A stretch of DNA of 64,000 nt from NCBI GenBank assembly GCA_020637215.1, contig JACJWI010000009.1, positions 20,576-84,575 on the forward strand, read 5' to 3'. The notes under the pieces are model-generated. The model ran no database searches, was not told the DNA's origin, and was given only the letters and a program-made list of their open reading frames with translations. Below, piece by piece: positions 1 to 19,179 of the stretch. The translations under genes and the position numbers were made by a program. Source of the stretch: Microthrixaceae bacterium. GTDB taxonomy: Bacteria; Actinomycetota; Acidimicrobiia; Acidimicrobiales; Microtrichaceae. Positions within the stretch are counted from its first letter, which is position 1. Every line of letters starts with the position of its first letter.

Positions 1-205
1 CCCCGATGATCCGCCGCGAGATCGACCCGATGCGGTCGATGGTCGGGTCCGCTGCTGGCGCGGCGGTACCGATCGGTGTTCCTGGGCGGGCCAGGTCGGC
101 CAGGACGAGCCCGATCGGGGTGGGCCGAGGGGCGAGCGCACGCCATGTGATCAGCGCGCCGGCGCCGATTCCCGCGCCGAGGAGGCACATGACGACGACC
201 TTCAC
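1..205 (-). CDS. TadC-like type II secretion F-family membrane protein (partial, runs off the left edge)
   Basis: GTG start overlaps the tadB stop (GTGA). Translates MKVVVMCLLGAGIGAGALITWRALAPRP, a hydrophobic N-terminus in the tadC position. Confidence 0.7.
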   Translation of the reverse strand, partial: MKVVVMCLLGAGIGAGALITWRALAPRPTPIGLVLADLARPGTPIGTAAPAADPTIDRIGSISRRIIG

Positions 206-1065
206 GGCTCGACTCCTACCGCTGTCGGGCTGGCGGCTCGAGCCGTGAAGCGCTCGGGTAGGTCGATGCGGGCCATGCGGGTGAGGAGCCATCCGCCGGT
301 GGCGAAGATGGCGCCGACGACGGCCAGAACGAGTTGACCAACGGGGCTGTCGTAGACGGCGAGGTAGTCCCGGTTGACCAGAGCGAGGAACACCACTGCG
401 GCGACGACGACACCGACGATCACCTTGGTGGCAGTTCGCACTCTCGTGCGACCGACCTCGACGCGGATGCGCATCCTCGCCTCGCCGCGGGTGGCATCGG
501 CGAGCCGGGACAGGAGGCTGGACAGGTCGCTGGCTTCCATCCGGGCGGCGATGACGAGCGCGGCGACGACCAGGTCGCCGGAGGGGTGGATGAGGTCGTT
601 GCCGAACGCGACGAGCGCATCGGGCAGCGGTTGGTGTTCGAGGCGACGGACGAGGGTGCGGACCTCGGGGGCGATCGGTGCAGGGGCGACGTTCGCGGTG
701 GCGATGATGGCTTCTTCGAGCCCGGACGCGGCGACGATCGAGTCGCGGATCATCTCGGTCCACGAGGCAATGGCCTCGGTGCGAGCGATCTCGCGGTCGC
801 GGTGGCTCTTTCCTCCGAGCACACCCGGCAGGGCCGCGACGGTGAGCGCGCCGAGAACCCCGCCGACGAACCAGCCGGTGACCGCCCACACGACGATGAA
901 CGCAGCGACGCTGGACGCGATGCGGGCCGTTCCGGGGCCGCCGACTCTGCGTTGAGCGCCGGCTCCCACCCCTTCGAGGATCGGCCTGCCGGTGAGCCCG
1001 GCCACGACGAGCAGGAGCCCCAGTGCTGCGCCGGCCGCGAGTGCGGCGATGACCAGGGCGCTCAT
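202..1065 (-). CDS. tadB: TadB-like type II secretion F-family protein
   Basis: N-terminal TM helix, GLEEAI motif, C-terminal TMs with YLAVYDSPVGQ; ATG overlaps the cpaF stop. Confidence 0.85.
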   Translation of the reverse strand: MSALVIAALAAGAALGLLLVVAGLTGRPILEGVGAGAQRRVGGPGTARIASSVAAFIVVWAVTGWFVGGVLGALTVAALPGVLGGKSHRDREIARTEAIASWTEMIRDSIVAASGLEEAIIATANVAPAPIAPEVRTLVRRLEHQPLPDALVAFGNDLIHPSGDLVVAALVIAARMEASDLSSLLSRLADATRGEARMRIRVEVGRTRVRTATKVIVGVVVAAVVFLALVNRDYLAVYDSPVGQLVLAVVGAIFATGGWLLTRMARIDLPERFTARAASPTAVGVEP

Positions 1066-2438
1066 CGCCACCACCCGTCGGCCAGCGCGTGCGCTTCGAC
1101 GTCGAAGCCGTAGCGCTCGAGCTTGTCGGTCAGCTCGCGGGTAGGGGGTGCGGCCGGGGCCGCTGTGCCGGTTTCGTCGGGGCGCCAGAGCTCGTTGGAG
1201 ACGATGTGTGGGCCTTCGAGGGTGCCGGTGACCTGGCGGACGCTGGTGATGCGCCGCTCGCCCTCGACCCAGCCGAGGTGCACGATGAGGTCGACGGCAT
1301 TGGCGACGAGCAGGTTCGTCACCTCGGGCACCAGCCGCTCGGGGGTCATGGCCGCGTACATGGCGAGCCGCCCGAAGACGCCCTTGGACGAGTCGGCGTG
1401 GATCGAGCACATCGACCCGTCGTTGCCTTGGGACATGGCGAGCAGCATCGGGAGCACCTCGGCGCCGCGAACCTCACCGACGATGACGCGGTGTGGGTCC
1501 ATGCGCAGCGCGGAGCGGACGAGGTCGGCGAGGGTGATCGCGCCGACGCCTTCGGTGTTGGCCTCGCGGGCTTCGAGGGTCTCGTGGTCGGGATGGAGGT
1601 CCTCGAAGCGTTCCAGGCCGATCTCGAGTGAGTCCTCGACGGTGATGAGCCGCTCGTCGGGTTCGATCTCGTTGATGAGGCAGCGAAGCATCGTGGTCTT
1701 GCCGGTGCCGGTGCCGCCGGCAACGATCACGTTTGCTCGGGCCCGCACCGCGGCCGACAGGAACCTGGAGAGCAGGTCGTTGCACACACCGCGTGCGACG
1801 AGCTGGTCGACACGGTGGATGTCGAAGTCGTGGCGGCGGATCGTCACCGTGGGTCGACCTGACACGGCCATGAGGGCGTGGAGCCGGTCGCCGTTGGGGA
1901 GTTGGAGGTTGAGCTCGGGTTGGGCGTGGTCCCAGCGGCGTTCGCTTCGACCAAGCCTCCGGGCCGCGGTGGCGATCAGCTCGACCAGCTCGTCGTCGGA
2001 CGCTGCGACCGACGGGCCACGCACCTTGGTGCCGTCGCGCATGGTGAGCCACACCCGGTTCGCCCCCGAAATGTGGATGTCGCGGATCGACGGGTCGTCG
2101 AGCAGCGGTTGGAGGCGGGCGAGGCCGTGGAGTCGATCGAGCACCGCGGTCATCACCGCGTCCTCGGTGGCTTCGTCGAGCGGTTGGCGACCTGTGGAGT
2201 AGGCGTCGGTTGCCAGTCGGCGCAGTTCGTCGGCCAACAACTTGCGGGCCAGGGCTCGTTCATCGGATACCGATAGTCGGCCTCGGCCCGCGTCCTCATG
2301 GGCGCTGTGGGCGGCGGTGAGCGACTCGCCGACGATGCGATGCAATCGGCCGACGAGCTCCGCGGCCTCGCCCTCGAGCGGTGCCGAGGAGGCGGTCGAG
2401 CTTCCCTGCTGTGGAGAGATCGCGACCGTGGTGCTCAT
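1062..2438 (-). CDS. cpaF: CpaF/TadA pilus assembly ATPase
   Basis: Walker A GGTGTGKTT, ITVEDSLE, LRMDPHRVIVGEVRG, GNDGSMCSIHA. Confidence 0.95.
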   Translation of the reverse strand: MSTTVAISPQQGSSTASSAPLEGEAAELVGRLHRIVGESLTAAHSAHEDAGRGRLSVSDERALARKLLADELRRLATDAYSTGRQPLDEATEDAVMTAVLDRLHGLARLQPLLDDPSIRDIHISGANRVWLTMRDGTKVRGPSVAASDDELVELIATAARRLGRSERRWDHAQPELNLQLPNGDRLHALMAVSGRPTVTIRRHDFDIHRVDQLVARGVCNDLLSRFLSAAVRARANVIVAGGTGTGKTTMLRCLINEIEPDERLITVEDSLEIGLERFEDLHPDHETLEAREANTEGVGAITLADLVRSALRMDPHRVIVGEVRGAEVLPMLLAMSQGNDGSMCSIHADSSKGVFGRLAMYAAMTPERLVPEVTNLLVANAVDLIVHLGWVEGERRITSVRQVTGTLEGPHIVSNELWRPDETGTAAPAAPPTRELTDKLERYGFDVEAHALADGWWR

Positions 2439-3157
2439 CGGATCGTCACCGCCTCGGACACCGGTGCGGCGGGCTTGTCGAGGATGTCGACGAGCCCGGC
2501 GACGGCTCGCGAGAGCCGGGAGCGGGCGAGGGACCGGGAAGTGGTTCCACCGTCGCGGAGGTGAGCGGCAGTCGTGGGGTCGTCGGGCAAGTGGGCCAGG
2601 ACCGGCGCGCCGAGCGAGTCACCGATCTCGGTGGGCCGGTAGGTGCCGTCACCGACGAGCACCACGCCGACCTGCACGCCGCGGTGGCCGAGGTTGGTGG
2701 CGTTCAGCGTTGCGACCGCGTGGGATGCGGCGACGAGCTCCTCGGCATTGGGTCGGGCCAGCACCAACACCACCTCGGCAACGTCGAGGATCCGGGGGCG
2801 GCGCCAGATCCGGCCGACGTCGATGACGACCGTCCCGTCGGAGCGGCCGAGAACCCCCACGATCCGCTCCCCCGCTGTCCGCCACAACGACTCCGCAGTT
2901 TCCGCGGCGTCCGGGCCGACCAGCACCGGGATGCCGCCGGCGTTCTGGGCGTGGTCGAGCCAACCGCCGGGCTCGTGTGGGTTCGCCGCAGCCAGCGTGA
3001 CCAGGCCCGGTTCGCGTCCGAGCCCGTAGCGGATCGCGACCACCCCACCGGACAGGTCCGCCTCCACCATCACGGCGTCGAGGTGCGACGCGACGAGCAG
3101 AGCGGTGGTGGTGACCCCGGGTGCGCCCCGGGCCGAGCACAACGCCACGGCCCTCAT
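2435..3157 (-). CDS. CpaE/ParA-MinD-like protein with degenerate P-loop
   Basis: SARGAPGVTTTA (Walker A lacking Lys), VEADLSGG, VVIDVGR; lies between the SAF gene and cpaF. Confidence 0.75.
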   Translation of the reverse strand: MRAVALCSARGAPGVTTTALLVASHLDAVMVEADLSGGVVAIRYGLGREPGLVTLAAANPHEPGGWLDHAQNAGGIPVLVGPDAAETAESLWRTAGERIVGVLGRSDGTVVIDVGRIWRRPRILDVAEVVLVLARPNAEELVAASHAVATLNATNLGHRGVQVGVVLVGDGTYRPTEIGDSLGAPVLAHLPDDPTTAAHLRDGGTTSRSLARSRLSRAVAGLVDILDKPAAPVSEAVTIR

Positions 3158-3888
3158 GGCGACACCTGCACGAGCCGCAACGACCCCGACCCCGCCCGGG
3201 CGGCGACCGCAACCGCGTCGCCCTCCGGCGCGAGGATCGACACGAGCAGTCGGTCACTTGTCAGCTCCTCGACCGAGACGACGGTCGCCCCGCGGGCGAT
3301 CACCACGTCGCCCATACCAGTGCTGGTGTCGGCACCGTCATCGCTTGTGTCGCCGTCGTCAGCCTCGTTCGTGACCGGGTCGGCGGGGTCGACGGTTCGG
3401 ACCACATTCACGAGGTCCCCCGGCGACAGTCCCATCGCTGGGTAGCCGCCCGGTTCGAGCGACAGGCCGACGATGCCGTCGCCCGCCTCGAGCGCAGGAC
3501 GGTCTGCGACGACCGAACGCGTGAGCAGGGTTCCCGGTGCGAGGTCGACGAGCGCCACCTGGCCGACCACGCTGTTCAGGTCGGCTTGGGTCAGGTGGGC
3601 GAGCGTGTCGTCGCTGGCGACGTAGACCACGCGAACATCGGACGACGACAGGGTCTGGCCTCGTTCGACGGTGCCGACGACCGCAAGCGCTGGTGACTTG
3701 TCGACGGCGCTCAGGTGCCACAGGACCGCGCCGAGAGCGAACACGGTCATCACCAGCACGCCGACCACAAGCTCGGGCAGGCGCACGCGGCGGCGGGGTG
3801 GGGCGATGCCCGCGACCGGGGCGGGGCGGTGACCGTTCGTGCTCGGTGCTCCTGATCGGGGAGCGCGGACGGTTGGGGTGGATGCCAT
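3154..3888 (-). CDS. SAF-domain / RcpC-CpaB-like pilus protein
   Basis: TM helix followed by SAF-like VERGQTLSSSDV...VGQVALVDLAPGTLL; ATG at 3888 follows the upstream stop. Confidence 0.8.
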   Translation of the reverse strand: MASTPTVRAPRSGAPSTNGHRPAPVAGIAPPRRRVRLPELVVGVLVMTVFALGAVLWHLSAVDKSPALAVVGTVERGQTLSSSDVRVVYVASDDTLAHLTQADLNSVVGQVALVDLAPGTLLTRSVVADRPALEAGDGIVGLSLEPGGYPAMGLSPGDLVNVVRTVDPADPVTNEADDGDTSDDGADTSTGMGDVVIARGATVVSVEELTSDRLLVSILAPEGDAVAVAARAGSGSLRLVQVSP

Positions 3889-3889
3889 G

Positions 3890-4759
3890 TCAGTCGCCTC
3901 TCGTGCCGATCGCTTGGATCTCGCCCACCTCGACATCGAGGGTCGAGGTGCGCGTGATCGCCGGGAGGGTCCCACCGAACGGCGCATTGGAGGTCCAGGT
4001 GATCTCGAGGCGGACCGTGGCCGAGAGGTCGAAGGTGCCGCCGTCGGCCGAGGCTGACGACCGGCGGTAGGTGTGGGTGCAGTTGCTCGCGTCCTCGTCG
4101 ACGCCGGGCGACCAGGCGACCCCGGGGCCACGGCACACTTCGCTGCCACCATCACCGGTGCCCCAGGTGACCGACACCGGTCGAGCGGTCACCGTCGACC
4201 ACACCCGGCCCGCCTGCGCGGTAGCGGTGTAGGGCTGCCACCACGACGAATCGATCCACAACCACGTCGGGATCTGCACGTACAGCCGTCCGCTCTCTTC
4301 TGGGCTCGTGCGGATCGCGGGCGGCGCGATCTGCACGGACTGCAACGCCTGCTGAGCCAGAGCGGCCGGGTCGACCAGACCGCCCTCGGGGATGATGAAG
4401 TAGCCGTCGACAGCGACGGCGCCGGTACCTTCGCACCAGTACTCGAGCCAGCGTCCCGTCGCCGAGTGCTGGGTCTGGAGGGTGTCGACGTCGTAGATGC
4501 CCATCTGGAAGTCGTCCTCGATGACGACGTGCCACTCACACGGCGGACCTTCCCCTCCTCCTCCTCCACCGCCACCCGAGCCGCCACCACCGGGGTTCGC
4601 GGTGCCGTCGCCTGCGGTGGCCGTCGGGTCGCCGTCACCGTCGACGTAGGCGCCACCTCCTCCACCTGGAGGAGGACGGTTGCCGGCACCGGCCGGTGTC
4701 GCGGCAAGCAGGACCGAGGCCCCGGCGAGGAGCAACGCCGTCAAGACGCGAGTGCGCAT
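3890..4759 (-). CDS. Secreted Gly-rich protein with Trp/Cys-rich beta-rich C-terminus
   Basis: Signal peptide MRTRVLTALLLAGASVLLAATPAGA, Gly tracts, PTWLWID...VTWGTGDG...C..PG...CTHTY. Confidence 0.75.
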   Translation of the reverse strand: MRTRVLTALLLAGASVLLAATPAGAGNRPPPGGGGGAYVDGDGDPTATAGDGTANPGGGGSGGGGGGGGEGPPCEWHVVIEDDFQMGIYDVDTLQTQHSATGRWLEYWCEGTGAVAVDGYFIIPEGGLVDPAALAQQALQSVQIAPPAIRTSPEESGRLYVQIPTWLWIDSSWWQPYTATAQAGRVWSTVTARPVSVTWGTGDGGSEVCRGPGVAWSPGVDEDASNCTHTYRRSSASADGGTFDLSATVRLEITWTSNAPFGGTLPAITRTSTLDVEVGEIQAIGTRGD

Positions 4760-5391
4760 CCGGCCACCCCCTCGAATTGCTGGAGGAGTCGAGCCTCCGA
4801 CACCTTCCACACCCCGTCGACCCGAAGCATCTCGGCCTGGACGTTGTGGGTGCTGACCGAGTCATCGACCACCTCACCGGTGTCACGGCTCACGACCAGG
4901 CCGTCGTCGACCACGCACTCCTGGACCACGGCCCGGTCGCCGTCGATCTCCACCACCGTGACCCGCTGGATGTTGTGTGGTTCTGCGGCTCGCTCGAACG
5001 CGACACCCGAGTCGAGGTTGGACTGGGTCTCGGCAACCACCGCATCGAGCTGACGGCCAGTGGCGAAGTCGCGCAATGCCGGATCGTCGGGGTTCGGGAC
5101 CCCAGCGTTCGCGTTGAAGCGCGCATTCCAGTAGCCGACGTAGCGATCGATCACCTCCTGCTCCGCGGTCGTACCCGGAGCAGTGGTGACCGGTGTGGCC
5201 TCGGTCGTGGTCGTCGTGGTGTCCCGCGACGTCGAGGACGTCGACGCGGTGGTCGATGTCCTGTCTGCGGCGGTCGTCGACGACGCCGCGGTATCGCTGT
5301 CGTCATCGCTGCAACCGGCGAGCGCGAGAACCAGCGCAACACAGAGGGCGCTGATCACGGCGCGTCGGGGTGGGTGACCGAACCAAGGCAT
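4741..5391 (-). CDS. Lipoprotein with Ser/Thr-rich linker
   Basis: Lipobox LAGC, Thr-rich linker, GAGGA RBS; C-terminal AVVQECVVD...GVWKVS. Confidence 0.8.
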   Translation of the reverse strand: MPWFGHPPRRAVISALCVALVLALAGCSDDDSDTAASSTTAADRTSTTASTSSTSRDTTTTTTEATPVTTAPGTTAEQEVIDRYVGYWNARFNANAGVPNPDDPALRDFATGRQLDAVVAETQSNLDSGVAFERAAEPHNIQRVTVVEIDGDRAVVQECVVDDGLVVSRDTGEVVDDSVSTHNVQAEMLRVDGVWKVSEARLLQQFEGVAGCALAS

Positions 5392-5627
5392 GGGTGTGCC
5401 TCCTCGTCCGAGGGGACCCGTACCCAGCGCCGACCATCCCACCAACACGGGACGGCGGCGGACCGTACCCATGAGGGATCGACAGCGAGTGGCGCTGAGG
5501 TGGGAGGTCCGCCCCGTATCGGTCAGGCAGACGAGACCGGGCCGACCACGACGTCGACCAGCAACGACGGTACCCGATCGTCTCGGAGTTGTCTCCTGAC
5601 CTCGGGTCGATCCCGCTCGAGCACCCA

Positions 5628-6326
5628 TCAGCTCGCCAGCGGCAGGACGCGCAGGCAGCGCTCGGCGCGGGTGCGTCGACGCCAGATCGCGTCCGCCGAC
5701 ATGTTCATGTCCGCGGCCACGTCGACCAGCGACTCACCGCCCAGGCGGGTGCGGATGATCGTCGCCAGCGCGGCGCGGGAGACCATGCCCTGCTCCTGGG
5801 CGCTGCGGAGCTCGTCGAACAACTCCTGCTCGCACACGACCTGTTCCGGAGTCGGGTTGGGATCGGCGCCGAAGCGCCGGTTGTGCACCTCGGGTTCGAC
5901 CGGGCACTCGATCGTGGCCCTGTTGCGGAGGAACTCCTTGCGGACGTCGAGCACCACGTTCGCCGCCACCGGTCCCGGCCGCTGCGGTGGGTAGGTGCGG
6001 ATCCGGTTCCACGCGATCGACACGACCTCACCCACCGAGTCCGGCTCGTCGTGCACCACCCCGGCGACCACGCGGACGACGCCGCCCAGCAGCGCCTGGA
6101 GCAGCGTGCGTGCCGCGACTTCATCGACGGGGGCCTCGGTGGCGAGCACCCGCAACGCGCTGGCCCCCCAGTCGCGTCTGCCCCGGGTGTCGACGAAGTC
6201 GTTCAGGCTCTGGACTTGGCCCAGCTCGGGGTGACGGGCCGTCCAGCGCATCAGCGCTCGACGAGCCTTCGGAGAGCGGGCCAACGTGGCCCACTCCTCG
6301 TTCAGAGCATGCACGATCGTTGTCAT
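5628..6326 (-). CDS. Sigma-70/ECF-like transcription factor
   Basis: Region-4 HTH IIRTRLGGESLVDVAADMNMSADAIWRRRTRAERCL; GGAGG RBS before ATG 6326. Confidence 0.7.
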   Translation of the reverse strand: MTTIVHALNEEWATLARSPKARRALMRWTARHPELGQVQSLNDFVDTRGRRDWGASALRVLATEAPVDEVAARTLLQALLGGVVRVVAGVVHDEPDSVGEVVSIAWNRIRTYPPQRPGPVAANVVLDVRKEFLRNRATIECPVEPEVHNRRFGADPNPTPEQVVCEQELFDELRSAQEQGMVSRAALATIIRTRLGGESLVDVAADMNMSADAIWRRRTRAERCLRVLPLAS

Positions 6327-6376
6327 CGGGAGGACCTCCTGGTGCTGGTTGGACACCAGGAGGCTCCGCGCGGCCC

Positions 6377-6454
6377 ATCCCGTTGGCTCTCCCGTTACCT
6401 ATCCGGTTGGCGAGAAATCCTCGAGATTCTTCAACCGGATACCCAACGGGATAG
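6377..6454. repeat. 12-bp repeat cluster: 3 reverse copies (6377-6412) and 2 forward copies (6431-6454)
   Basis: atcccgttggct ctcccgttacct atccggttggcg ... tcaaccggatac ccaacgggatag; lies upstream of the sigma-like gene. Confidence 0.85.
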
Positions 6455-6465
6455 ACAGCGCGATG

Positions 6466-8106
6466 TCACGCCTTGTGGGCCTCGTTTCGTCCAGGAATCA
6501 CCAGTTCTGGCCAGTGGCCGAGGTCGCGGCGGAGCTGGCGGTCATGGGTCACGACGACCACCGCTGCGGCCGTGGCGTCGAGGGCCTCGGTGAGCTCGTC
6601 GACGAGCGCGATCGACAGGTGGTTGGTGGGTTCGTCGAGGAGCAGGGCGTGGGGTCGGCCGGCGAGGGCGAGGGCGAGGTCGAGACGGCGTTGCTGGCCC
6701 ATGGAGAGCTCGGCAAGGGGTCGAGCGGTGTCGGCAGCCGAGAGCAGCCCGAGGGACCGCAACGGCACGGTCGCATCGAGTCCCAGGTGACGGAGTTGAT
6801 GCATACGGGCTTCGTAGATGTCATGGACTCGGCGTCGGTCAGCTGACGGGGTCTCCTGGGCGACGAAGCCGATGCGAGCGTTCGCCGCGACCCTCACCGA
6901 GCCCTGGTCCGCTTCGAGCTGTCCGGCAAGCACCGCGAGCAGGGTGGACTTGCCGGCCCCGTTCGGACCGGTGATCAGGAGACGGTCGCCGGATTCGAGC
7001 GCGACGGTGACCGGGCCCGTGAGCCGGCCGTCGACCGCGACCTCCTCGGCTCGCACGAGCGTCACGCCGGACAGCGTTGCCAGTTCGGGCATGTGGAACC
7101 GCAGCGGCGCCATCGGTCTCGATACGGCGTGGTCGGCGAGGTCGTCGATCCGTCGGTTCACCGCCCGAACCAGAGACGGTGCCCGAGTGGCGCGCTGGTG
7201 CTTGCCGGTGCCCTTCGGTGGACGCCAACTCGAACGAAGCCGGTTCTGCGCCGCCGAAAGGTCGTCGGCGAGGCGGGCCTCCTCGGCCAGGTGCTGGTCG
7301 TAGTCCTGCTCCCAGCGGGCCATCGCCGCCGAACGACCGGCCCGGTAGCCCTCATAGCCGTCGCCGTAGACGCGGGGCCGCCCATCGATGCTGGGATCCA
7401 GGTCGAGGATCTTGGTCGCGACGTCGGCGAGCAACACCCGGTCGTGGCTGACCAGGACCACCCCGCCGGGATGGTCGCGCAGCGCGGCGGTCAAGAAGTC
7501 GAGGCCGTGCTCGTCGAGGTGGTTGGTGGGCTCGTCGAGGAGCAAGAAGTCGTGCTGAGCACCGAGCAGGCACGCCAGGCGCACCCGGTAGCGCTCCCCG
7601 ACCGACATCTGCGCGAGTGCGCGGCTGCGGTCGCGCACCGCGCCGAGCGCGTCGAGCGCCAAGTCAACGCGTCGGTCCGCATCCCACGCGTCGAGCGCCG
7701 TCGCAGCATCGAGCGCCGCCGCGTACTCGTCGTCAGCACCCTCGACCTCCGCGGCCATGGCCGCGGCAGCCTCGTCGAGGGCCTGCAACGCGGCGCGAGC
7801 ATCGGCCAGCTCCACGTCGATCAGCTCACCGACGGTTCGCGCGTCTCCAGCAGCCAGTTCCTGCTCAGCGACGCCGATGCTGCCGATCCGGCTGACCGTC
7901 CCCGAGTCAGGGCGCAGCGTCCCCGCGAGGACGTGCAGCAGCGTCGACTTGCCGCGACCGTTCTCACCCACCACGCCCAGACGGGTGCCCGCCGAGACCG
8001 ACACCGACACGTCGACCAGGACCGGCCGACCCCCTCGTTCCACGTGCACCGACGCGGCGACGAGTTGGGCGCGCGACCGCGCCCGAACCTCTGTGTTGCG
8101 AACCAA
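6466..8106 (-). CDS. ABC-F family ATPase (candidate ribosome-protection protein)
   Basis: Two NBDs (GENGRGKST, GPNGAGKST; LLLDEPTNHL twice), no TM domains, basic interdomain linker; GGAAGGA RBS before TTG. Confidence 0.92.
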   Translation of the reverse strand: MVRNTEVRARSRAQLVAASVHVERGGRPVLVDVSVSVSAGTRLGVVGENGRGKSTLLHVLAGTLRPDSGTVSRIGSIGVAEQELAAGDARTVGELIDVELADARAALQALDEAAAAMAAEVEGADDEYAAALDAATALDAWDADRRVDLALDALGAVRDRSRALAQMSVGERYRVRLACLLGAQHDFLLLDEPTNHLDEHGLDFLTAALRDHPGGVVLVSHDRVLLADVATKILDLDPSIDGRPRVYGDGYEGYRAGRSAAMARWEQDYDQHLAEEARLADDLSAAQNRLRSSWRPPKGTGKHQRATRAPSLVRAVNRRIDDLADHAVSRPMAPLRFHMPELATLSGVTLVRAEEVAVDGRLTGPVTVALESGDRLLITGPNGAGKSTLLAVLAGQLEADQGSVRVAANARIGFVAQETPSADRRRVHDIYEARMHQLRHLGLDATVPLRSLGLLSAADTARPLAELSMGQQRRLDLALALAGRPHALLLDEPTNHLSIALVDELTEALDATAAAVVVVTHDRQLRRDLGHWPELVIPGRNEAHKA

Positions 8107-8172
8107 GACCAGTTCCTTCCCAGTGGGTGACCATCACCGCCAACCGGCGCGGCCACACGCGATCCACGAACG

Positions 8173-8229
8173 AGCGACCCCTCCGTCGGGGTTCGCCGAT
8201 CAACCCGGACGCGACAACGCGTCCCCGGG
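8173..8229 (-). promoter_or_regulatory. Hairpins in the ABC-F leader (putative attenuator)
   Basis: Stems ggacgcg/cgcgtcc (8207-8224) and gcgacccc/ggggttcgc (8173-8196) lie between the uORF and the ABC-F RBS. Confidence 0.6.
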
Positions 8230-8237
8230 CTGGTGGA

Positions 8238-8261
8238 TCAAAGGAAGATCGACTGCAACAT
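8238..8261 (-). CDS. Putative leaderless leader peptide MLQSIFL
   Basis: ATG TTG CAG TCG ATC TTC CTT TGA, with a TAGCCT -10-like hexamer 7 nt upstream of the ATG. Confidence 0.55.
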   Translation of the reverse strand: MLQSIFL

Positions 8262-8361
8262 GACAGCCAGGCTACCAACGAATCTGGCTCCTACCGGGCA
8301 GGTTCGCGGGCGCTATCCAGCTTGAGCGCGGGATTCGGTCCGATTCGCGGCTTACCTGGGC

Positions 8362-8907
8362 ATGGAACACGATCGAGTCCTCACGTTCACGCCCGTCAAC
8401 CACCCGAACCGCCAGGTTCGACAGATCGGCTTCGATCTGTCGGACACCTACGTCGAGCAGTGCTGGTCTGCTGTCGTCGGGCCGAGCGCGGTGGTGCTGT
8501 TGCGCCGGATGCCCGAGCTGTGGCGCCACGAGGTCCCGGCCAAGATGCCCGCGGACGAGCTGAGCCGCTCGATCGGGCTCGGGGGCGGGACCGGGCCGAA
8601 CAGCCGGCTCATGGCGATCACCGATCGGATGGTCAAGTTCGGGCTCGTCCGCCGGGGTGGCGGACCGGACCGCTTCGACGTGTTCCTCGAGGTCGCACCA
8701 TTGCAGGCCCGACAGCTCGAGCGGGTGCCCGAGTGGACCCAGGCCACCCATGAGCGGTTGTTCTCAGCGCACCTCGAGGGCTTCGACGGTGTCGCCGAGC
8801 ACCGAGCGAAGGTCACCAACGCGGCGGTCGATCTGAATCGGTTTCGTGACCGAGCCACCCACTCCGACCGCACCCCACCAGCAGCGCGTCAGGCCCTCGG
8901 GCGATGA
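8362..8907 (+). CDS. Hypothetical protein, winged-helix-like (possible replication or relaxosome accessory)
   Basis: 181-aa ORF with plausible protein composition, YVEQCWSAVVGPSAVVLLRR...DELSRSIGLG; directly upstream of the relaxase. Confidence 0.6.
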   Translation: MEHDRVLTFTPVNHPNRQVRQIGFDLSDTYVEQCWSAVVGPSAVVLLRRMPELWRHEVPAKMPADELSRSIGLGGGTGPNSRLMAITDRMVKFGLVRRGGGPDRFDVFLEVAPLQARQLERVPEWTQATHERLFSAHLEGFDGVAEHRAKVTNAAVDLNRFRDRATHSDRTPPAARQALGR

Positions 8908-8997
8908 GCCTCAGGAGCCGTCCCGGCTCTCCCGGAAGCCTGGCCGTCGCGGGAACCCACGTCGGTTCTGAACGGCAGGTCTGGCGCGCACACATTG

Positions 8998-9039
8998 ACA
9001 GGTTCCCCTTCGGGGAACCTGTTGGCTATCCGGTTGGCG
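8998..9039. promoter_or_regulatory. Perfect 11-bp inverted repeat plus two 12-bp repeat copies (candidate oriT/operator)
   Basis: acaggttcccc-ttc-ggggaacctgt (8998-9022) overlapping TTGACA (8995-9000); atccggttggcg at 9028-9039, just before the relaxase GTG. Confidence 0.5.
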
Positions 9040-9046
9040 GTTCGTC

Positions 9047-12000
9047 GTGAAGTTCACCGTCACCCCGCTCGGCGGTGGCCGGGCCGACACGGCCCGGGTC
9101 GTGGACTCGATCGTCCGCTACCTGAACCCGCCCGCCGCCAAGACCCCCGGGGCGGGCGGCCCCGCTCCATCGGGGGCAGAGGGCGCGGAGCAGTACTACG
9201 CGGACAAGGGCGAGGAACCGGGTCGGTGGCTGGGCCGCTACGCCGCGACCACTGGCCTGGCGGGACCGGTGCAGCGCCATGACTTCGCGTCGGTGCTCGC
9301 TGGCCGTGATCCCCACACCGGGGAACGGTTGATCACCGCGCAGGGCTCGGCCGGTCGACGCCCGACGTTGGGTGCAGGGGCACACTCGCGGACCGGCGCC
9401 CACGGCGAGCGGCTCTATGACGTCGCGGACGCTGCCGCGGTCCTCGGGGTCACGCATCGCGAGGTCGGGCGCATGCTCGACGCCGGGACCCGCCTGGTGC
9501 TCGCGGCACTCCCGCCGACGGCCGGTCAAGGCTCAACCGGATATCCCGTTGGTCATCCGGTTGGCGCTGCCGAGACCGAGCCCGGCGCGGCGTACCTGGT
9601 CCCTTTGGTCGATGAGGACGGGTCCCGATGGGTGAGCGAGGAAGAGCTGGCCCGCTGCCAACAGGCCCGTGACGAGGGCGTGACACCCGAGCAGGTCCGT
9701 GCCCTCGGTGGCCCCGAGGATCAGCTGTCGATCAGCGACGCAGCCCGCCTCGCCGGTGTGACCAACCGCTACCTGCGCGGAGTTGCCCGTTACCACGAGG
9801 ACCACCCGGTGGAGATCGCCCAGTCGGTCGCCGCGGGTCGGCAGCCTCGCCGGGCGTACCTGGAAGCGCATCGGGGCACGAAGGGCCGCTGGTTGGTCAC
9901 CCGTGAGCACTTGGCCGAGTTCCTCGAACGACGACGACCACCGGCAGTGCGCGTCGCCTACGACCTGACGCTCACCACCGAGAAGTCCCTCGGGGTGTTG
10001 GCCCTGCTTGGCAACGACACGACCCGACGGGCGGTGCTGGGGTCGATCCAGGCCGGCAACGACTGGGCGCTCGGCTGGATCGAGGAACGTGCCGTGGGGC
10101 GCATCGACGGCCAACCAGTCGCGGCGCAGGGGTTGATGGTGGCGTCTTTCCGACACCTCACCTCACGGGCACTGGACCCGTTCCCCCACCATCACAACGT
10201 CGTGCTCAACACCGTCCAGGTTCCCGACGGTTCCCACCGGTCGCTGTGGTCACGCTGCCTGTACCGCAACGCCCAAGCCGCGTCCGCGTTGGCGACCGCG
10301 GAGATGCGCCACGAGCTCGCCAGCCAGCTCGATGTGCGATGGCGGCCCGGCCGCAAGTCCGGATGGGAGATCGACGGCATCGACCAGGCCGTCGTGTCGG
10401 AGTTCTCGAAGCGCCGCAACGAGATCGACGACGCCCTCGCCGAGCTCGAAACCGAGATCGGCCGTGGCGCGCATCCCGGCGAGGTCGAACACATCGTGTT
10501 GCGTACACGCCCCGCCAAGAACCACACCCCCGCCGACGAGCTCATCGCCGACTGGCGGGCACGCGCCGAAAGAGCCGGTCTGACCAGCGATGATCTCGAC
10601 CGGCTCGCCCCACCCATCCGTGAACCGGATACCCAACGGGATAGCCAACCGGATAGCCAGCGGGATAGGACAGAGACCGTCTACCGACTCCTCGCGGCCG
10701 ATGACGGGATCTGTGCCGGTGGGTCGGTGTTCGCCCGAGCCGACGCCATCGCCGCGGTCGCGAACGTCGGGGTCCCCGATCCCGACGGTGTCGCCCAACC
10801 ACTCCTCGGTGGCGCGACCCAGGTCCTCGAGCTGACCGACGGGTTCCTCGCGTCTGGCCATGTGGTCGCGCTCACCGACGGCGACGAGCCGCTGTTCACC
10901 ACCCGTGCGATGCTCGAGATGCAGAACCGCATCGCAGCACGGTTCCGAGCCGGTCGCCACGAAGGCACCCACCACGTCACCGACCACAACCTCGCAGTGG
11001 CACTCACCGGGCACCCGCACCTCACCGGTGAACAACGCGACCTCGTTCGGTCCTGGTGCCAAAGCGGACACCGGTTTCAACTCGCGATCGGCCGGGCCGG
11101 GACCGGCAAGACCACCACCGTCGCCGCCTGTGCCGATGCCTGGCGCGTCGCTGGCTACCGCGTCGTCGGTGCCGCGGTGAAGGGCGAAGCCGCGCGCACC
11201 CTCGCAGCGGCGACCGGGATCGAGTGCGAGACCGTCGCCTGGTACCTCGCGCACACCGACCCCGACCAGCCACCCCTCGACGCCCGCACCATCCTCGTCA
11301 TCGACGAAGCCTCCACGCTGCACGACCAAGCCCTCGACACGCTCATGGACATGGCCACCCGTACCGGGGCCGCCGTGCGCCTCGTCGGAGACCCCGCCCA
11401 ACACGGAGCGATCGCCGCCGGTGGGATGTTCCGGGTGCTCTGCGAACGGCACCCCCACATCACCCCCGAACTCACCACCAGTCACCGGCTCCAACACCCC
11501 GGCGACCGGCTGGCGGCGGACGCGCTCCGCCACGGCGACATCGACACCGCGTTCGACGCTCTCGCCGCGGCAGGGCACCTCCACGTCGTCGGTGATGACC
11601 TGACCATGTACCGCCAGATCCTCGGACGATGGTGGGACGCCCACCGCTACGGCGACGACCACCCCATGGTCGACCGGCGCAACACCACCCGCCGCCAGCT
11701 CAACCGCCTCGCCCACCTCCTCCGAGCCGTGAACGGCGAACTCGGCGACGACCAGATCCCCGCCAGCGGGGGACGCAGCTTCGCCACCGGCGACCGCGTC
11801 ACCGCCCGCGCCCCCAACCGCAGCCTCCACGTCGACGGCGACCGCCACGCCTACGTCCGCAACGGCGCCCTCGGCACCATCACCGCCACCCACCACAACC
11901 CGAAACGGCCAGCCGAGGATCGGATCACCGTCGACTTCGACGGTATCGGTTCGATCGAACTGCCCCGCAGCTTCTTCGACCACCACCGCACCACCGCCGG

Positions 12001-12328
12001 CCGGACCGAGGTCGGCATCGACCACGCCTACGCGCTCACCAGCTACGCCGTGCAGGGCTCCACCAGATCGGTCTCCACCAGTCGAGTCGACGCCACGGCC
12101 ACCCGCGCCGAGACCTACGTCGACATCACCCGAGGCCGCAACGCCAACCACCTCTACCTCACCGCAGCCACCGACCCCCTCGACGGCGAAGCCCTCCCCC
12201 GCATCCCCGCCCCACCCGCCGACATCGCCGTCGCCGACCGCCTCCACCGATCCACCGGCGAGCTCACCGCCTGGGAACTCGCCCACCCCATCGACCCTGC
12301 TTTGGCCGGTCGGGTGATCGAGCGATGA
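9047..12328 (+). CDS. MobF (TrwC-type) relaxase fused to RecD-like SF1 helicase, with internal HTH insertion
   Basis: YYADKGEEPGRWLG, YDLTLTTEKS, HUH motif HLTSRALDPFPHHHNVV; helicase motifs GRAGTGKTT, VIDEAS, LVGDPAQHGAI, YALTSYAVQGST. Confidence 0.93.
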   Translation: MKFTVTPLGGGRADTARVVDSIVRYLNPPAAKTPGAGGPAPSGAEGAEQYYADKGEEPGRWLGRYAATTGLAGPVQRHDFASVLAGRDPHTGERLITAQGSAGRRPTLGAGAHSRTGAHGERLYDVADAAAVLGVTHREVGRMLDAGTRLVLAALPPTAGQGSTGYPVGHPVGAAETEPGAAYLVPLVDEDGSRWVSEEELARCQQARDEGVTPEQVRALGGPEDQLSISDAARLAGVTNRYLRGVARYHEDHPVEIAQSVAAGRQPRRAYLEAHRGTKGRWLVTREHLAEFLERRRPPAVRVAYDLTLTTEKSLGVLALLGNDTTRRAVLGSIQAGNDWALGWIEERAVGRIDGQPVAAQGLMVASFRHLTSRALDPFPHHHNVVLNTVQVPDGSHRSLWSRCLYRNAQAASALATAEMRHELASQLDVRWRPGRKSGWEIDGIDQAVVSEFSKRRNEIDDALAELETEIGRGAHPGEVEHIVLRTRPAKNHTPADELIADWRARAERAGLTSDDLDRLAPPIREPDTQRDSQPDSQRDRTETVYRLLAADDGICAGGSVFARADAIAAVANVGVPDPDGVAQPLLGGATQVLELTDGFLASGHVVALTDGDEPLFTTRAMLEMQNRIAARFRAGRHEGTHHVTDHNLAVALTGHPHLTGEQRDLVRSWCQSGHRFQLAIGRAGTGKTTTVAACADAWRVAGYRVVGAAVKGEAARTLAAATGIECETVAWYLAHTDPDQPPLDARTILVIDEASTLHDQALDTLMDMATRTGAAVRLVGDPAQHGAIAAGGMFRVLCERHPHITPELTTSHRLQHPGDRLAADALRHGDIDTAFDALAAAGHLHVVGDDLTMYRQILGRWWDAHRYGDDHPMVDRRNTTRRQLNRLAHLLRAVNGELGDDQIPASGGRSFATGDRVTARAPNRSLHVDGDRHAYVRNGALGTITATHHNPKRPAEDRITVDFDGIGSIELPRSFFDHHRTTAGRTEVGIDHAYALTSYAVQGSTRSVSTSRVDATATRAETYVDITRGRNANHLYLTAATDPLDGEALPRIPAPPADIAVADRLHRSTGELTAWELAHPIDPALAGRVIER
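9533..9566. repeat. 12-bp repeat copies inside the relaxase (1 forward, 2 reverse)
   Basis: tcaaccggatat / atcccgttggtc / atccggttggcg; encodes STGYPVGHPVG. Confidence 0.8.
10621..10668 (+). repeat. Four tandem 12-bp repeat copies inside the relaxase
   Basis: tgaaccggatac ccaacgggatag ccaaccggatag ccagcgggatag; encodes EPDTQRDSQPDSQRD. Confidence 0.9.
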
Positions 12329-12408
12329 CCATCGAGGATTTTGTTGTCGGTTTTCGGGACTGTTCGCGGCTTACCCAGGTACGGAAACACACCAGGAGGC
12401 CCAGCCCC

Positions 12409-12636
12409 ATGACCACCGCACCTCCCGACACCCCCGCCGAGGTCCTCACCGTCGAGGAAGCCGCGGCGATCCTGCGCATCAGCCGCAACGCCGCCTACGC
12501 GGCGGCCCGTCAGTGGCGCGCCACCGGCGGCGAGACCGGCCTGCCCTGCATCGAGATCGGCCGCACCCTCCGGGTGCCCCGCGCCGATCTCGACCGGCTG
12601 CTGGGTCGCCACGGCCCGTCTCAGGCCGTGGCGTGA
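12409..12636 (+). CDS. Excisionase-like HTH_17 protein
   Basis: VLTVEEAAAILRISRNAAYAAA...GLPCIEIGRTLRVPRADL; AGGAGG RBS. Confidence 0.88.
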   Translation: MTTAPPDTPAEVLTVEEAAAILRISRNAAYAAARQWRATGGETGLPCIEIGRTLRVPRADLDRLLGRHGPSQAVA

Positions 12637-12646
12637 TCGGTCCACA

Positions 12647-14014: not shown

Positions 14015-14103
14015 ACCACAGATAGTTAACGGATAGTTGCTATCTCGGTTGGTGGTTCGTACCATTGGGTTCGAGACCACAGCGCACCCGAGGAGGTGCC
14101 CCG

Positions 14104-19170: not shown

Positions 19171-19179
19171 TGTTTCAGA

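What the first reader, a model, noticed from the sequence alone, without database searches (positions are those of the whole stretch)
6466..8280. ABC-F gene with a leaderless MLQSIFL leader peptide and attenuator hairpins: candidate inducible antibiotic-resistance cargo
Seen: a -10-like TAGCCT 7 nt before a 7-codon uORF, then two hairpins, then the RBS of a TM-less double-NBD ATPase. Known: ribosome-protecting ABC-F genes are often controlled by ribosome stalling on short leaders, and the macrolide-sensing leaders ErmCL (IFVI) and MsrDL (MYLIFM) have a similar IF-hydrophobic ending. Inference: a mobile, drug-inducible ABC-F resistance gene in an environmental actinobacterium.
Basis: partly seen in the sequence, partly recalled or inferred. 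Interest (0 to 1): 0.7.

Follow-up and report, generated by a model that had tools for sequence, protein, structure and literature searches.

The report
Leaderless uORF switch before mobile ABC-F gene
A ribosome-binding ABC-F gene from an untested candidate-resistance subfamily rides as cargo on a conjugative element of a wastewater actinobacterium, and it carries a 7-codon mini-gene switch found in front of this subfamily in all 80 loci examined and apparently never described.

Summary
A -10-like TAGCCT (8274-8269, minus strand) lies 7 nt before ATG-TTG-CAG-TCG-ATC-TTC-CTT-TGA (MLQSIFL*, 8261-8238). A structured 131-nt leader, an SD (GGGAAGGAA) and a TM-less two-NBD ABC-F gene (8106-6466) follow.

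The main result is conservation. In 78 of 80 related actinobacterial loci, one TANNNT lies 6-7 nt (8 nt in one locus) before a 6-8-codon ATG/GTG mini-ORF ending hydrophobic-[F/Y]-x-stop. This pattern hit 0 of 2948 control windows. The remaining two loci are a variant and a cut contig.

The last uORF codons pair with the ABC-F SD. A modelled ribosome on the uORF lowers the SD opening cost from 13.9 to 6.5 kcal/mol; a control mask leaves it at 13.7. Canonical terminators are not conserved. This points to translational attenuation of the ermC kind with an MsrDL-like peptide.

The protein belongs to subfamily AAF4, a predicted and untested ARE family that is sister to the macrolide-resistance ARE4 group. 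ARE4 loci lack this uORF.

The gene with its leader is a ~1.85-kb cargo insert in a tRNA-Met ICE. Related ICEs have the empty site.

Still untested: the inducer, the resistance phenotype and the exact transcription start. I found no publication or Rfam family for this leader.

The parts
8269..8277 (-). Promoter -10 region: TGG + TAGCCT (extended -10-like), 7 nt upstream of the uORF ATG
   Evidence: Read from the sequence. TANNNT lies 6-7 nt (8 nt in one locus) before the uORF start in 78 of 80 homologous loci. The strict sigma-70 scan finds no -35/-10 pair. The transcription start has not been mapped.
8238..8261 (-). Leader mini-ORF ATG TTG CAG TCG ATC TTC CTT TGA = MLQSIFL*, predicted to start at +1 of the transcript (leaderless)
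   Evidence: The peptide is identical, with synonymous changes, in loci whose ABC-F is 75-76% identical (L027 TCA and CTC; L028 CTC). The family consensus is hydrophobic-[F/Y]-L-stop.
8242..8248 (-). Anti-SD inside uORF codons 5-7 (UCUUCCU), which pairs with the ABC-F SD
   Evidence: MFE fold. Family-wide SD-opening analysis. Cognate versus permuted duplex test.
8127..8239 (-). Structured leader. Helix P1 (GAUCCAC 8239-8233 with GUGGAUC 8167-8161, includes two bases of the stop codon) encloses hairpins P2 (~8232-8201) and P3 (~8197-8172). Hairpin P4 (8156-8127) follows.
   Evidence: RNAalifold on 6 close relatives keeps P1-P4, and 3 pairs change on both sides. P3 and P4 are absent from the short leader of L139.
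8113..8121 (-). Shine-Dalgarno sequence GGGAAGGAA of the ABC-F gene
   Evidence: Read from the sequence. It is conserved in close relatives, where an ATG aligns with the TTG start of the window.
6466..8106 (-). ABC-F ATPase gene, 546 aa, subfamily AAF4, TTG start
6455..8300 (-). Approximate extent of the ~1.85-kb cargo insert (promoter + uORF + leader + ABC-F) within the ICE backbone
   Evidence: Related ICEs L142 and L143 have the sigma-like gene and orf181 separated by only about 200 bp of iteron-bearing spacer, with no ABC-F. The boundaries were judged by eye from weak DNA similarity.
1..19256 (.). Part of an integrative conjugative element: T2SSE/CpaF-like ATPase 1062-2438(-), TrwC relaxase-helicase 9047-12328(+), tyrosine integrase 15351-17240(-), tRNA-Met 19180-19256(-) as attachment site. 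The element runs off the left end of the window and of the contig.
   Evidence: Pfam, ARAGORN, and 45-52-nt exact copies of the tRNA 3' part on contigs C4 (two copies), C9 and C10.

Best explanation
Window 6466-8106 (minus strand) encodes an AAF4-subfamily ABC-F ATPase. This is a soluble, ribosome-binding twin-NBD protein and the closest relative of the macrolide-resistance ARE4 proteins OleB, TlrC, CarA and SrmB. It sits with its own promoter and leader as a ~1.85-kb cargo module in a tRNA-Met integrative conjugative element of a wastewater Microthrixaceae bacterium.

A ribosome-sensing leader most likely controls its expression.

1. Transcription is predicted to start at the A of the uORF ATG, so the 7-codon uORF MLQSIFL is translated without a 5' UTR.
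2. In the resting mRNA, the last uORF codons and the stop-codon region (UCUUCCU...UGAUCCAC) are base-paired with the SD region and with the 3' arm of helix P1. The ABC-F RBS is therefore closed.
3. When a ribosome is held on the uORF, it covers these bases, the SD opens and the ABC-F is made. The hold is most likely at the stop codon with ...I-F-L in the tunnel, as MsrDL (MYLIFM) is held by erythromycin. Alternatively it is at the start codon, as caused by PTC inhibitors.
4. The ABC-F then presumably clears the drug-stalled ribosomes, which would also switch its own induction off.

Shown here: gene identity and subfamily; cargo status; conservation of the uORF, the -10 spacing and the peptide C-terminus; and the computed SD masking and unmasking.

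Inferred: leaderless initiation, real stalling, the identity of the inducer (a 50S-targeting antibiotic, macrolide-like being my first guess), and the resistance function.
For: **Identity**
- The best NCBIfam models are ABC-F ribosomal-protection families.
- The best PDB sequence and fold matches are all ribosome-bound ABC-Fs.
- The AF2 model has pLDDT 89.6 and an inter-NBD helical hairpin at residues 250-328.
- There is no TM segment, and both ATPase sites are complete.

**Subfamily**
- In an ML tree with reference rows from Murina et al. 2019 (PMC6723617, supplement 13), the protein sits in a 100/100 clade with AAF4 WP_033346736.
- AAF4 is sister to ARE4 with support 90/84.

**uORF**
- The MLQSIFL peptide is identical, with synonymous changes, in loci whose ABC-F is 75-76% identical.
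- A 60% paralogue has MHLYFL* behind TAGAGT plus 6 nt.
- In 78 of 80 loci a residue-blind search finds exactly one -10 + 6-7 nt + ATG/GTG mini-ORF. Of these, 77 of 78 have F/Y at position -2 and 78 of 78 are hydrophobic at -3. Leu at -4 uses four synonymous codons about equally.
- The chance rate is 0 of 2948 control windows.

**Mechanism**
- Mean cost to open the SD/start region is 13.9 kcal/mol in the free leader. It is 6.5 with a ribosome at the uORF stop, 9.0 with a ribosome at the start, and 13.7 with a same-size mask elsewhere.
- The cost falls by at least 2 kcal/mol in 64 of 72 leaders, against 5 of 72 for the control mask. For the window the four values are 9.9, 6.0, 6.8 and 8.8.
- Cognate uORF-end/SD duplexes average -18.2 kcal/mol against -15.8 +/- 0.34 for permuted partners; 0 of 2000 permutations reach the observed value.
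- The window leader has no canonical terminator. Only 10 of 72 leaders have even a weak terminator-like site.

**Cargo**
- Integrase, tRNA-Met and the TrwC relaxase are present.
- Related ICEs show the empty site.
- Within the genus, the gene is present only in G000 and G005.

**Precedent**
- MsrDL stalls at its stop codon with erythromycin (PMC10314930).
- An AAF4 protein of S. lincolnensis rises with clindamycin (PMC8546547).
Against: - No experiment bears on any AAF4 protein as a resistance factor.
- NCBIfam scores are below both curated cut-offs: NF000171 360.6 against 800, and NF000355 325.6 against 380.
- The transcription start is unmapped. RNA-seq contigs of a Streptomyces relative begin at -21, +13, +112 or +172 relative to the predicted +1, or run through it. 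One run therefore holds reads upstream of the supposed +1.
- The wastewater metatranscriptome was uninformative.
- The uORF end and the SD are both nearly invariant among close relatives, so the window's own anti-SD pairing has no covariation support. The family-level test may be influenced by relatedness.
- The UUCCUC bases serve as both codons and anti-SD, so peptide-level and RNA-level selection are partly confounded.
- In many family members a second, local anti-SD (GCCUCC) could keep the SD closed. In the model the SD window stays about half paired when the uORF is masked.
- Thermodynamic folding ignores kinetics.
Confidence: 0.6

Rival explanations
1. The same uORF works by transcription attenuation, intrinsic or Rho-dependent, as shown for msrD, vmlR, cplR, lmrC, tiaA and whiB7. 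The GC-rich hairpin that begins 6-12 nt after the uORF stop would be a terminator or a pause element, and a ribosome held at the stop codon would prevent it from forming.
For: - Most characterised ARE ABC-F leaders use terminators (PMC12421871, PMC10201436, PMC10314930).
- In every leader a strong hairpin starts just downstream of the stop codon, within reach of a terminating ribosome.
- In Corynebacterium flavescens (L035) this hairpin is followed by UUUUU.
- In one RNA-seq run of a Streptomyces relative, deep coverage starts only in the middle of the leader.
Against: - The window leader has no hairpin-plus-U-tract.
- Only 10 of 72 leaders have even a weak terminator-like site.
- What is conserved is SD masking that depends on the uORF bases.
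- Actinobacterial terminators can lack U-tracts, and Rho dependence cannot be judged from sequence, so this rival is weakened but not excluded. Both levels could also act together, as in cplR.
Confidence: 0.15
2. The uORF senses something other than antibiotics, and AAF4 is a translation factor rather than a resistance protein. The signal could be shortage of charged Phe/Tyr/Leu tRNA, slow termination at UGA (RF2), or general translation stress.
For: - The peptide is rich in Leu, Phe and Tyr codons.
- UGA is the stop in 72 of 78 uORFs.
- The subfamily is mostly chromosomal and widespread in Actinobacteria.
- No AAF4 member has a demonstrated resistance phenotype.
- The inter-NBD linker (about 79 aa, residues 250-328) is not obviously longer than in non-ARE ABC-Fs. 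That comparison was made from memory and was not measured here.
- Earlier scan notes describe Tyr/Phe leader peptides before aromatic amino-acid genes.
Against: - Only one aromatic codon is invariant, and there is no run of regulatory codons as in pheL or trpL.
- The downstream gene has no link to amino-acid supply.
- UGA is the commonest stop codon in high-GC genomes anyway (general knowledge).
- The patchy distribution within a genus and carriage on an ICE is the pattern Murina et al. use to predict AREs.
- The sister group ARE4 is a proven resistance family.
Confidence: 0.15
3. The mini-ORF is not translated. The conserved bases would be only a promoter/+1 region plus an RNA anti-SD that keeps the ABC-F constitutively low, or that is opened by temperature, an sRNA or a protein.
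For: - The most conserved bases (UUCCUC) are exactly those complementary to the SD.
- There is no direct evidence of translation.
Against: - An intact start codon at a fixed distance from the -10, an open frame of 6-8 codons in 75 of 78 loci, and an in-frame stop are kept across the phylum.
- F and Y alternate at position -2 (UUC versus UAC). This breaks a base pair but keeps an aromatic residue.
- Leu at -4 uses TTG, CTC, CTT and CTG about equally.
- No acidic or basic residue occurs in the last four positions in 77 of 78 uORFs.
Confidence: 0.06

Closest known systems
msrDL-msrD leader of streptococcal mef(A)/msr(D) (Fostier et al. 2023, PMC10314930)
   Same: - A 6-residue hydrophobic leader peptide (MYLIFM) with an aromatic residue next to last sits before an ARE ABC-F gene.
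- The ribosome is held at the stop codon by a macrolide, and the ABC-F feeds back on its own induction.
- The family consensus here (hydrophobic-[F/Y]-L-stop, 6-8 codons) has the same size and character.
   Different: - msrDL has an SD and lies inside an operon, and it acts through an intrinsic terminator.
- Here the uORF is predicted to be leaderless and no conserved terminator is present. The uORF's own last codons form the anti-SD.
- Stalling and the inducer are untested here.
- UGA dominates here, whereas UAA dominates in msrDL.
ermCL-ermC translational attenuation
   Same: - A ribosome stalled on a short leader ORF (IFVI motif) remodels the mRNA so that the SD of the resistance gene is exposed.
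- Control is at the level of translation.
   Different: - ermC uses four segments (1:2 and 3:4 switching to 2:3), a 19-codon leader with its own SD, and a mid-ORF stall.
- Here the leader ORF has 6-8 codons and its 3' end pairs directly with the SD over 65-213 nt.
- The regulated gene is an ABC-F, not a methyltransferase.
Streptomyces ARE5 leaders: lmrC uORF2, tiaAL (MVGDDDISG), are5scL1 (MLV) (PMC8546547, PMC12421871)
   Same: Actinobacterial ABC-F genes controlled by antibiotic-dependent ribosome stalling on conserved uORFs in long 5' UTRs.
   Different: - The peptides are different and have RBS-dependent uORFs.
- Control is by terminator/antiterminator, and the stall is at the start codon, caused by lincosamide, streptogramin A and pleuromutilin drugs.
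- The subfamily is ARE5, which is distant from AAF4 in the tree.
ARE4 producer-type ABC-F proteins OleB, TlrC, CarA, SrmB (NCBIfam NF000171)
   Same: - This is the sister clade of AAF4, with 39-44% identity to the window protein.
- It gives the best NCBIfam hit.
   Different: - The score of 360.6 is far below the cut-off of 800.
- The window protein lies outside the ARE4 clade.
- Five ARE4 or ARE4-like loci examined lack the leaderless uORF.
whiB7/wblC uORF attenuator and leaderless regulatory small ORFs of mycobacteria
   Same: Actinobacterial use of uORFs as sensors of ribosome stalling (whiB7; cited in PMC10727445). Leaderless short ORFs acting as attenuators in mycobacteria (from my own knowledge of Shell et al. 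2015 and Canestrari et al. 2020; not checked here).
   Different: - The whiB7 uORF is much longer and controls a terminator before a transcription factor.
- The mycobacterial leaderless Cys-rich ORFs sense cysteine.
- None of these precedes an ABC-F or has this peptide.

Membership tests
ABC-F ATPases (soluble twin-NBD ribosome-binding proteins) | Two ABC nucleotide-binding domains on one chain, each with Walker A, signature, Walker B plus catalytic Glu, and H-loop | tested here: met
   - Pfam ABC_tran matches twice.
- Walker A: GENGRGKS at 47 and GPNGAGKS at 380.
- Walker B plus catalytic Glu: LLLDEP at 188 and 488.
- H-loop: SHDR at 220 and THDR at 520.
- The signature motifs are atypical (MSVGER at 167, LSMGQQ at 467).
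ABC-F ATPases (soluble twin-NBD ribosome-binding proteins) | No transmembrane domain | tested here: met
   The maximum Kyte-Doolittle 19-residue mean is 1.39. The AF2 model is fully globular.
ABC-F ATPases (soluble twin-NBD ribosome-binding proteins) | Alpha-helical hairpin linker (PtIM/ARD) between the NBDs, and overall fold like ribosome-bound ABC-Fs | tested here: met
   - AF2 predicts helix 250-293, loop 294-309 and helix 310-328, with pLDDT 89.6 overall.
- The top Foldseek PDB hits are EttA, PoxtA, VmlR2, YbiT, Uup, ABCF1, VmlR, VgaA-LC and LsaA.
AAF4 subfamily (Murina et al. 2019) | Monophyly with the reference AAF4 sequences of that classification | tested here: met
   - The protein lies in a 100/100 clade with AAF4 WP_033346736 (56% identity).
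- The second AAF4 reference joins this clade at 93/96.
- Species listed with AAF4 in Table S1 (Actinokineospora enzanensis, Actinomadura rifamycini) carry the homologues found here.
ARE4 / NF000171 TlrC-CarA-OleB-SrmB ribosomal protection proteins | Score at or above the curated cut-off (800 bits), and placement inside the ARE4 clade | tested here: not met
   The score is 360.6 bits. The protein lies outside the 100/99 ARE4 clade, as sister group.
NF000355 ribosomal protection-like ABC-F family | Score at or above the curated cut-off (380 bits) | tested here: not met
   The score is 325.6 bits, a near miss.
Antibiotic-resistance (ARE) ABC-F in the functional sense | Raises the MIC of a ribosome-targeting antibiotic and protects ribosomes in vitro | not testable with these tools
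   Only indirect pointers exist: sister to ARE4, patchy occurrence within the genus, carriage on an ICE, a stalling-type leader, and an AAF4 protein of S. lincolnensis that is up-regulated by clindamycin (PMC8546547).
Ribosome-stalling leader-peptide attenuators of resistance genes | Conserved short uORF upstream of the regulated gene | tested here: met
   The uORF is present in 78 of 80 loci, and the other two are a variant and a cut contig. Control windows gave 0 of 2948.
Ribosome-stalling leader-peptide attenuators of resistance genes | Alternative mRNA structure: the RBS (or an antiterminator) is freed when a ribosome occupies the uORF | tested here: met
   This is a computational result only. 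The SD opening energy is 13.9 kcal/mol free, 6.5 with a ribosome at the stop, 9.0 with a ribosome at the start, and 13.7 with a control mask. 64 of 72 leaders respond.
Ribosome-stalling leader-peptide attenuators of resistance genes | Intrinsic terminator in the leader (transcription-attenuation type) | tested here: not met
   The window leader has none. Weak terminator-like sites occur in only 10 of 72 leaders.
Ribosome-stalling leader-peptide attenuators of resistance genes | Drug-dependent ribosome arrest on the uORF | not testable with these tools
   This needs toeprinting, Ribo-seq or reporter assays.
Leaderless transcripts of Actinobacteria | Transcription start at the first base of the start codon, with a -10 (TANNNT) 6-8 nt upstream and no SD | tested here: inconclusive
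   - The geometry is met in 78 loci: 7-nt spacing in 42, 6-nt in 35 and 8-nt in 1.
- RNA-seq contigs of a Streptomyces relative end at -21, +13, +112 or +172, or run through the site.
- No 5'-end-specific data were available.
Cargo gene of an integrative conjugative element | Lies between integrase/att site and transfer genes, and related elements have the same backbone without it | tested here: met
   - Integrase, tRNA-Met and TrwC relaxase are present, with att-like repeats.
- L142 and L143 have the sigma-like gene and orf181 adjacent, with no ABC-F.
- L138 and L023 have the insert.

The most novel reading that the evidence does not exclude
The invariant C-terminus hydrophobic-[F/Y]-L-stop of a 6-8-residue leaderless peptide may be a new class of drug-dependent termination-arrest peptide, conserved in all 80 AAF4 loci examined across Actinobacteria. 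A 70S ribosome that initiates at the very 5' end and is then trapped at the stop codon would work as a one-piece sensor. Through a long-range anti-SD built into the last codons, it would switch on AAF4. AAF4 would then be an overlooked, widespread resistance family against macrolide-like or other tunnel/PTC drugs, and it is already mobile on ICEs in wastewater bacteria.
Probability: 0.4. Interest if true: 0.78.

Novelty: new variant of a known kind. Interest (0 to 1): 0.62.

Why it matters
AAF4 is one of the actinobacterial ABC-F subfamilies that Murina et al. (2019) predicted to be resistance factors. In the literature I could search, no one has tested that prediction, and no regulator of AAF4 has been described.

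A leader conserved in all 80 AAF4 loci examined across the phylum gives a direct experimental handle. The peptide consensus says what to toeprint. The inducer spectrum of the leader should reveal which antibiotics AAF4 answers to. The design itself (a leaderless uORF whose last codons are the anti-SD) is a compact variant of ermC/msrD-type sensing.

For resistome surveillance, this is a complete self-regulated module of about 1.85 kb that has been captured by a conjugative element. The stretch is found with all sampled words in 20 wastewater, activated-sludge, bioreactor and freshwater runs from 2013 to 2022. Curated resistance models (NF000171, NF000355) score it below threshold, so standard ARG pipelines would miss it.

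Tried and rejected
1. **Wastewater metatranscriptome (X2) for the transcription start.** The contigs span the promoter at DNA-like depth, so the run is uninformative.
2. **RNA-seq contigs of a Streptomyces relative laid on L038.** Contig ends scatter around the predicted +1 (-21, +13, +112, +172) or are absent, so they do not decide the matter.
3. **Metagenome scan with the single protein.** It returned only 3 useful relatives. Close relatives were fetched instead by exact protein look-ups.
4. **Rfam.** No family matches the leader; the best E-value was 1.5.
5. **Strict sigma-70 promoter and terminator scan.** It found no promoter pair. Its one 'terminator' call overlaps the uORF itself and is spurious.
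6. **Literature search for six of the leader peptides.** No relevant paper was found. Searches on ABCF with uORF, leaderless and AAF4 found only leaders of other subfamilies.
7. **MAB_2355c of M. abscessus as a possible characterised AAF4.** It carries ABC_tran_Xtn (PMC8373217), which the window protein does not hit. I could not obtain its sequence here, so no link is claimed.
8. **Fraction of SD bases paired as a measure of masking.** This was too blunt: 0.75 fell only to 0.57, and the shuffled-uORF control gave 0.32 against 0.51. I replaced it with opening energies and a positional control.
9. **RNAalifold on six close relatives.** I cut two sequences too short at the 3' end, so the anti-SD:SD pairing was not evaluated in that alignment.
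10. **Amino-acid-starvation attenuator reading.** Considered and judged unlikely; see the rival explanations.


Full report
**What is in the window**

On the minus strand, TGG-TAGCCT (8277-8269) is followed after 7 nt by ATG TTG CAG TCG ATC TTC CTT TGA (8261-8238; MLQSIFL*). A 131-nt GC-rich leader follows, then the SD GGGAAGGAA (8121-8113) and a TTG start at 8106. This opens a 546-codon frame that ends at 6466.

There is no SD-like purine run before the uORF. The leader folds at -84.4 kcal/mol (z = -2.0 against shuffles). Helix P1 includes two bases of the stop codon (GAUCCAC with GUGGAUC) and encloses two hairpins. A further hairpin follows. A long-range pairing joins uORF codons 5-7 (UCUUCCU) to the SD.

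**The protein**

- Pfam finds two ABC_tran domains.
- The best NCBIfam models are the ABC-F ribosomal-protection families NF000171 (360.6 bits, cut-off 800) and NF000355 (325.6 bits, cut-off 380). Both scores are below threshold.
- Both ATPase sites are complete and there is no TM segment.
- An AlphaFold2 model (pLDDT 89.6) shows two NBDs joined by a helical hairpin at residues 250-328. Its best PDB neighbours are all ribosome-bound ABC-Fs.
- I took reference rows from the published alignment of Murina et al. 2019 (PMC6723617, supplement 13) and built an ML tree. The protein lies in a 100/100 clade with the AAF4 reference WP_033346736. AAF4 is sister to ARE4 (OleB, TlrC, CarA, SrmB) at 90/84 and is far from ARE5, ARE1 and YdiF. 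An own-genome paralogue groups with AAF1, and two further own-genome paralogues are also distant from AAF4.
- Murina et al. predicted AAF1-5 to be novel resistance factors. I found no experimental test for AAF4. Koberska et al. report that one AAF4 protein of S. lincolnensis rises with clindamycin (PMC8546547).

**The uORF is a trait of the whole subfamily**

A genome with a 76%-identical ABC-F from another family of the order encodes the same peptide with a synonymous change (CTT to CTC). Its -10 is TACGCT, again 7 nt upstream. A 60% paralogue has TAGAGT, 6 nt, then MHLYFL*.

A scan of species-representative genomes returned 80 loci at 58-100% identity. They come from Acidimicrobiia, Streptomyces, Nocardia, Rhodococcus, Corynebacterium, Microbacterium, Nocardiopsis, Actinomadura and other groups.

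- A residue-blind search for TANNNT, 6-7 nt, ATG/GTG and an ORF of 4-13 codons finds exactly one candidate in 78 of 80 loci.
- Of these, 77 of 78 have F or Y at position -2, 78 of 78 have a hydrophobic residue at -3, and 77 of 78 have no charged residue in the last four positions.
- Of the two loci without a candidate in that search, L030 has the uORF with an 8-nt spacer and is picked up by the wider-spacer search. L099 is a contig cut inside the uORF.
- C. flavescens (L035) carries a longer variant, VNYLFFVYWG*, and is the one candidate without F/Y at -2.
- With the residue filter, the pattern hits 0 of 2948 control windows in the same loci and 1 of 4000 shuffled leaders.
- The start codon is GTG in 49 loci and ATG in 29. 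The stop is UGA in 72 of 78. There are 6-8 sense codons in 75 of 78, and 43 distinct peptides.
- Peptide-level selection is indicated in two ways. F and Y alternate at -2 (UUC versus UAC), which keeps aromaticity but not base pairing. Leu at -4 uses TTG, CTC, CTT and CTG in similar numbers.
- Five ARE4 or ARE4-like loci and two loci of the second AAF4 type lack the element, while a positive control in the same genomes shows it.

No paper in the searchable library contains six representative peptides in a relevant context. The published actinobacterial ABC-F leaders are different. Rfam has no match.

**How it most likely works**

In nearly all leaders, the MFE fold pairs the 3' end of the uORF with the SD region. 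I computed the ensemble cost of opening positions -14 to +4 of the ABC-F start in 72 distinct leaders.

| State of the leader | Mean opening cost (kcal/mol) | Window leader |
|---|---|---|
| Free | 13.9 | 9.9 |
| Ribosome footprint at the uORF stop codon | 6.5 | 6.0 |
| Ribosome footprint at the uORF start codon | 9.0 | 6.8 |
| Equal-size mask elsewhere in the leader | 13.7 | 8.8 |

The cost falls by at least 2 kcal/mol in 64 of 72 leaders, against 5 of 72 for the control mask.

Cognate uORF-end/SD duplexes are more stable than permuted ones: -18.2 against -15.8 +/- 0.34 kcal/mol, with 0 of 2000 permutations reaching the observed value. Canonical terminators are absent from the window leader and rare in the family.

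The best-supported model is therefore translational attenuation. A ribosome held on the leaderless uORF unmasks the SD. The peptide's size and hydrophobic-aromatic C-terminus resemble MsrDL (MYLIFM), which erythromycin arrests at its stop codon (PMC10314930). Together with the sister relation to macrolide-resistance ARE4, this makes a macrolide-like inducer my first guess. That remains inference.

Caveats:
- The same bases act as both codons and anti-SD.
- Many leaders have a second, local anti-SD.
- Close relatives give no covariation for the window's own pairing. RNAalifold on six of them supports P1-P4 with three compensatory pairs.
- Thermodynamic folding ignores kinetics.

**Is it leaderless?**

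The fixed -10 spacing and the lack of an SD argue that it is. Direct data do not settle the question. The wastewater 'RNA' run looks like DNA. RNA-seq contigs of a Streptomyces relative begin 21 nt upstream of the predicted +1, or 13, 112 or 172 nt downstream of it, or run through it.

**Mobility**

The gene lies between a TrwC relaxase-helicase (9047-12328) and a Tad-like ATPase operon. It is about 7 kb from a tyrosine integrase (15351-17240), which abuts tRNA-Met (19180-19256). Exact copies of the tRNA 3' part, 45-52 nt long, lie on four other places in the assembly.

Within the genus, only G000 and G005 carry the gene. A 95%-identical copy in another Microthrixaceae MAG has the same neighbours. 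Related elements in two other genera, with relaxases 70-74% identical, keep the backbone order. In them the sigma-like gene and orf181 are separated by only about 200 bp of iteron-bearing spacer, with no ABC-F.

Window ~6455-8300 is therefore a compact cargo insert made of promoter, uORF, leader and gene. Other clade members sit in non-mobile contexts (L140) or next to another integrase (L141). The stretch is held with all sampled words in 20 wastewater, activated-sludge, bioreactor and freshwater runs from 2013 to 2022.

**Verdict**

The kind of control is known. What appears to be undescribed is this variant, which combines four features:
- a leaderless 6-8-codon uORF
- an anti-SD built into its last codons
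- an invariant aromatic residue at position -2
- presence in all 80 AAF4 loci examined across the phylum

The inducer, the stalling, the resistance phenotype and the transcription start need bench tests.

Noticed in passing
window 6377-6454; L142 6715-6815; L143 ~4620-4715: Between the sigma-like gene and the ABC-F stop lie short repeated units (tatccggttgg / ccaaccggata / ccaacgggata, partly inverted). The related ICEs carry a different repeat (gacctcccgt, 6-7 copies) at the same backbone position. These look like element-specific iterons, possibly oriT or regulator sites. This agrees with an earlier first-reader note.
   Followed up: partly
G000 contigs C4:6851-6897 and 22383-22434, C9:150-196, C10:1508-1552 (copies of window 19173-19224): The 3' part of tRNA-Met is repeated exactly (45-52 nt) at four other places in the assembly, and two of these are 15.5 kb apart on one contig. 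This suggests several or tandem elements using the same att site. It would also explain why the ICE's far end is not on contig C20.
   Followed up: partly
window 7900-8450: The promoter/leader/5' gene stretch is held with all sampled words in 20 public runs (wastewater, activated sludge, bioreactor and freshwater; 2013-2022; about 10 studies). The element or its host is therefore widespread in treatment plants.
   Followed up: no
G005:C125 (L021 905-2637): The sister genome G005 has a second AAF4 gene (60% identity) with its own leaderless uORF MHLYFL*, in addition to the ICE copy. The window's genome has only the ICE copy.
   Followed up: partly
window 6466-8106, protein residues 167-172 and 467-472: Both ABC signature motifs depart from LSGGQ (MSVGER and LSMGQQ). 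The linker tip W-R-P-x-K-G-T-G-K-H-x-R-A-T-R (residues 294-308) is largely invariant or nearly so across 45 family members. This tip is a candidate ribosome-contacting element.
   Followed up: no
L139 287-370: One metagenomic relative (84% identity) has a much shorter leader after MLQSLFL*. The called ABC-F start lies about 50 nt past the uORF stop, and an alternative TTG start about 30 nt further on. The leader lacks hairpins P3 and P4, and the sequence GUGGAAGGAA fuses the 3' arm of P1 with the SD. The minimal switch may need only the uORF end, one hairpin and the SD.
   Followed up: no
L099 (Oscillospiraceae MAG contig, 3.2 kb): An AAF4 gene (58% identity) with the end of the uORF at the contig edge sits in a MAG labelled Oscillospiraceae (Firmicutes). 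This is either a binning error or a transfer out of the phylum.
   Followed up: no
P0016 (Actinomarinicola tropica, 854 aa): A database record fuses an acyl-CoA thioesterase-like N-terminus (PF13622, PF20789) to the ABC-F. This is probably an over-extended gene call that reads through the leader.
   Followed up: no
L038 2600-3100 with run X33: In one Streptomyces RNA-seq run, a low-depth contig (3.4) covers the promoter and the first bases of the uORF, while the deep contig (131) begins only 112 nt into the leader. This could reflect processing or pausing within the leader, or simply an assembly break in GC-rich structure.
   Followed up: no
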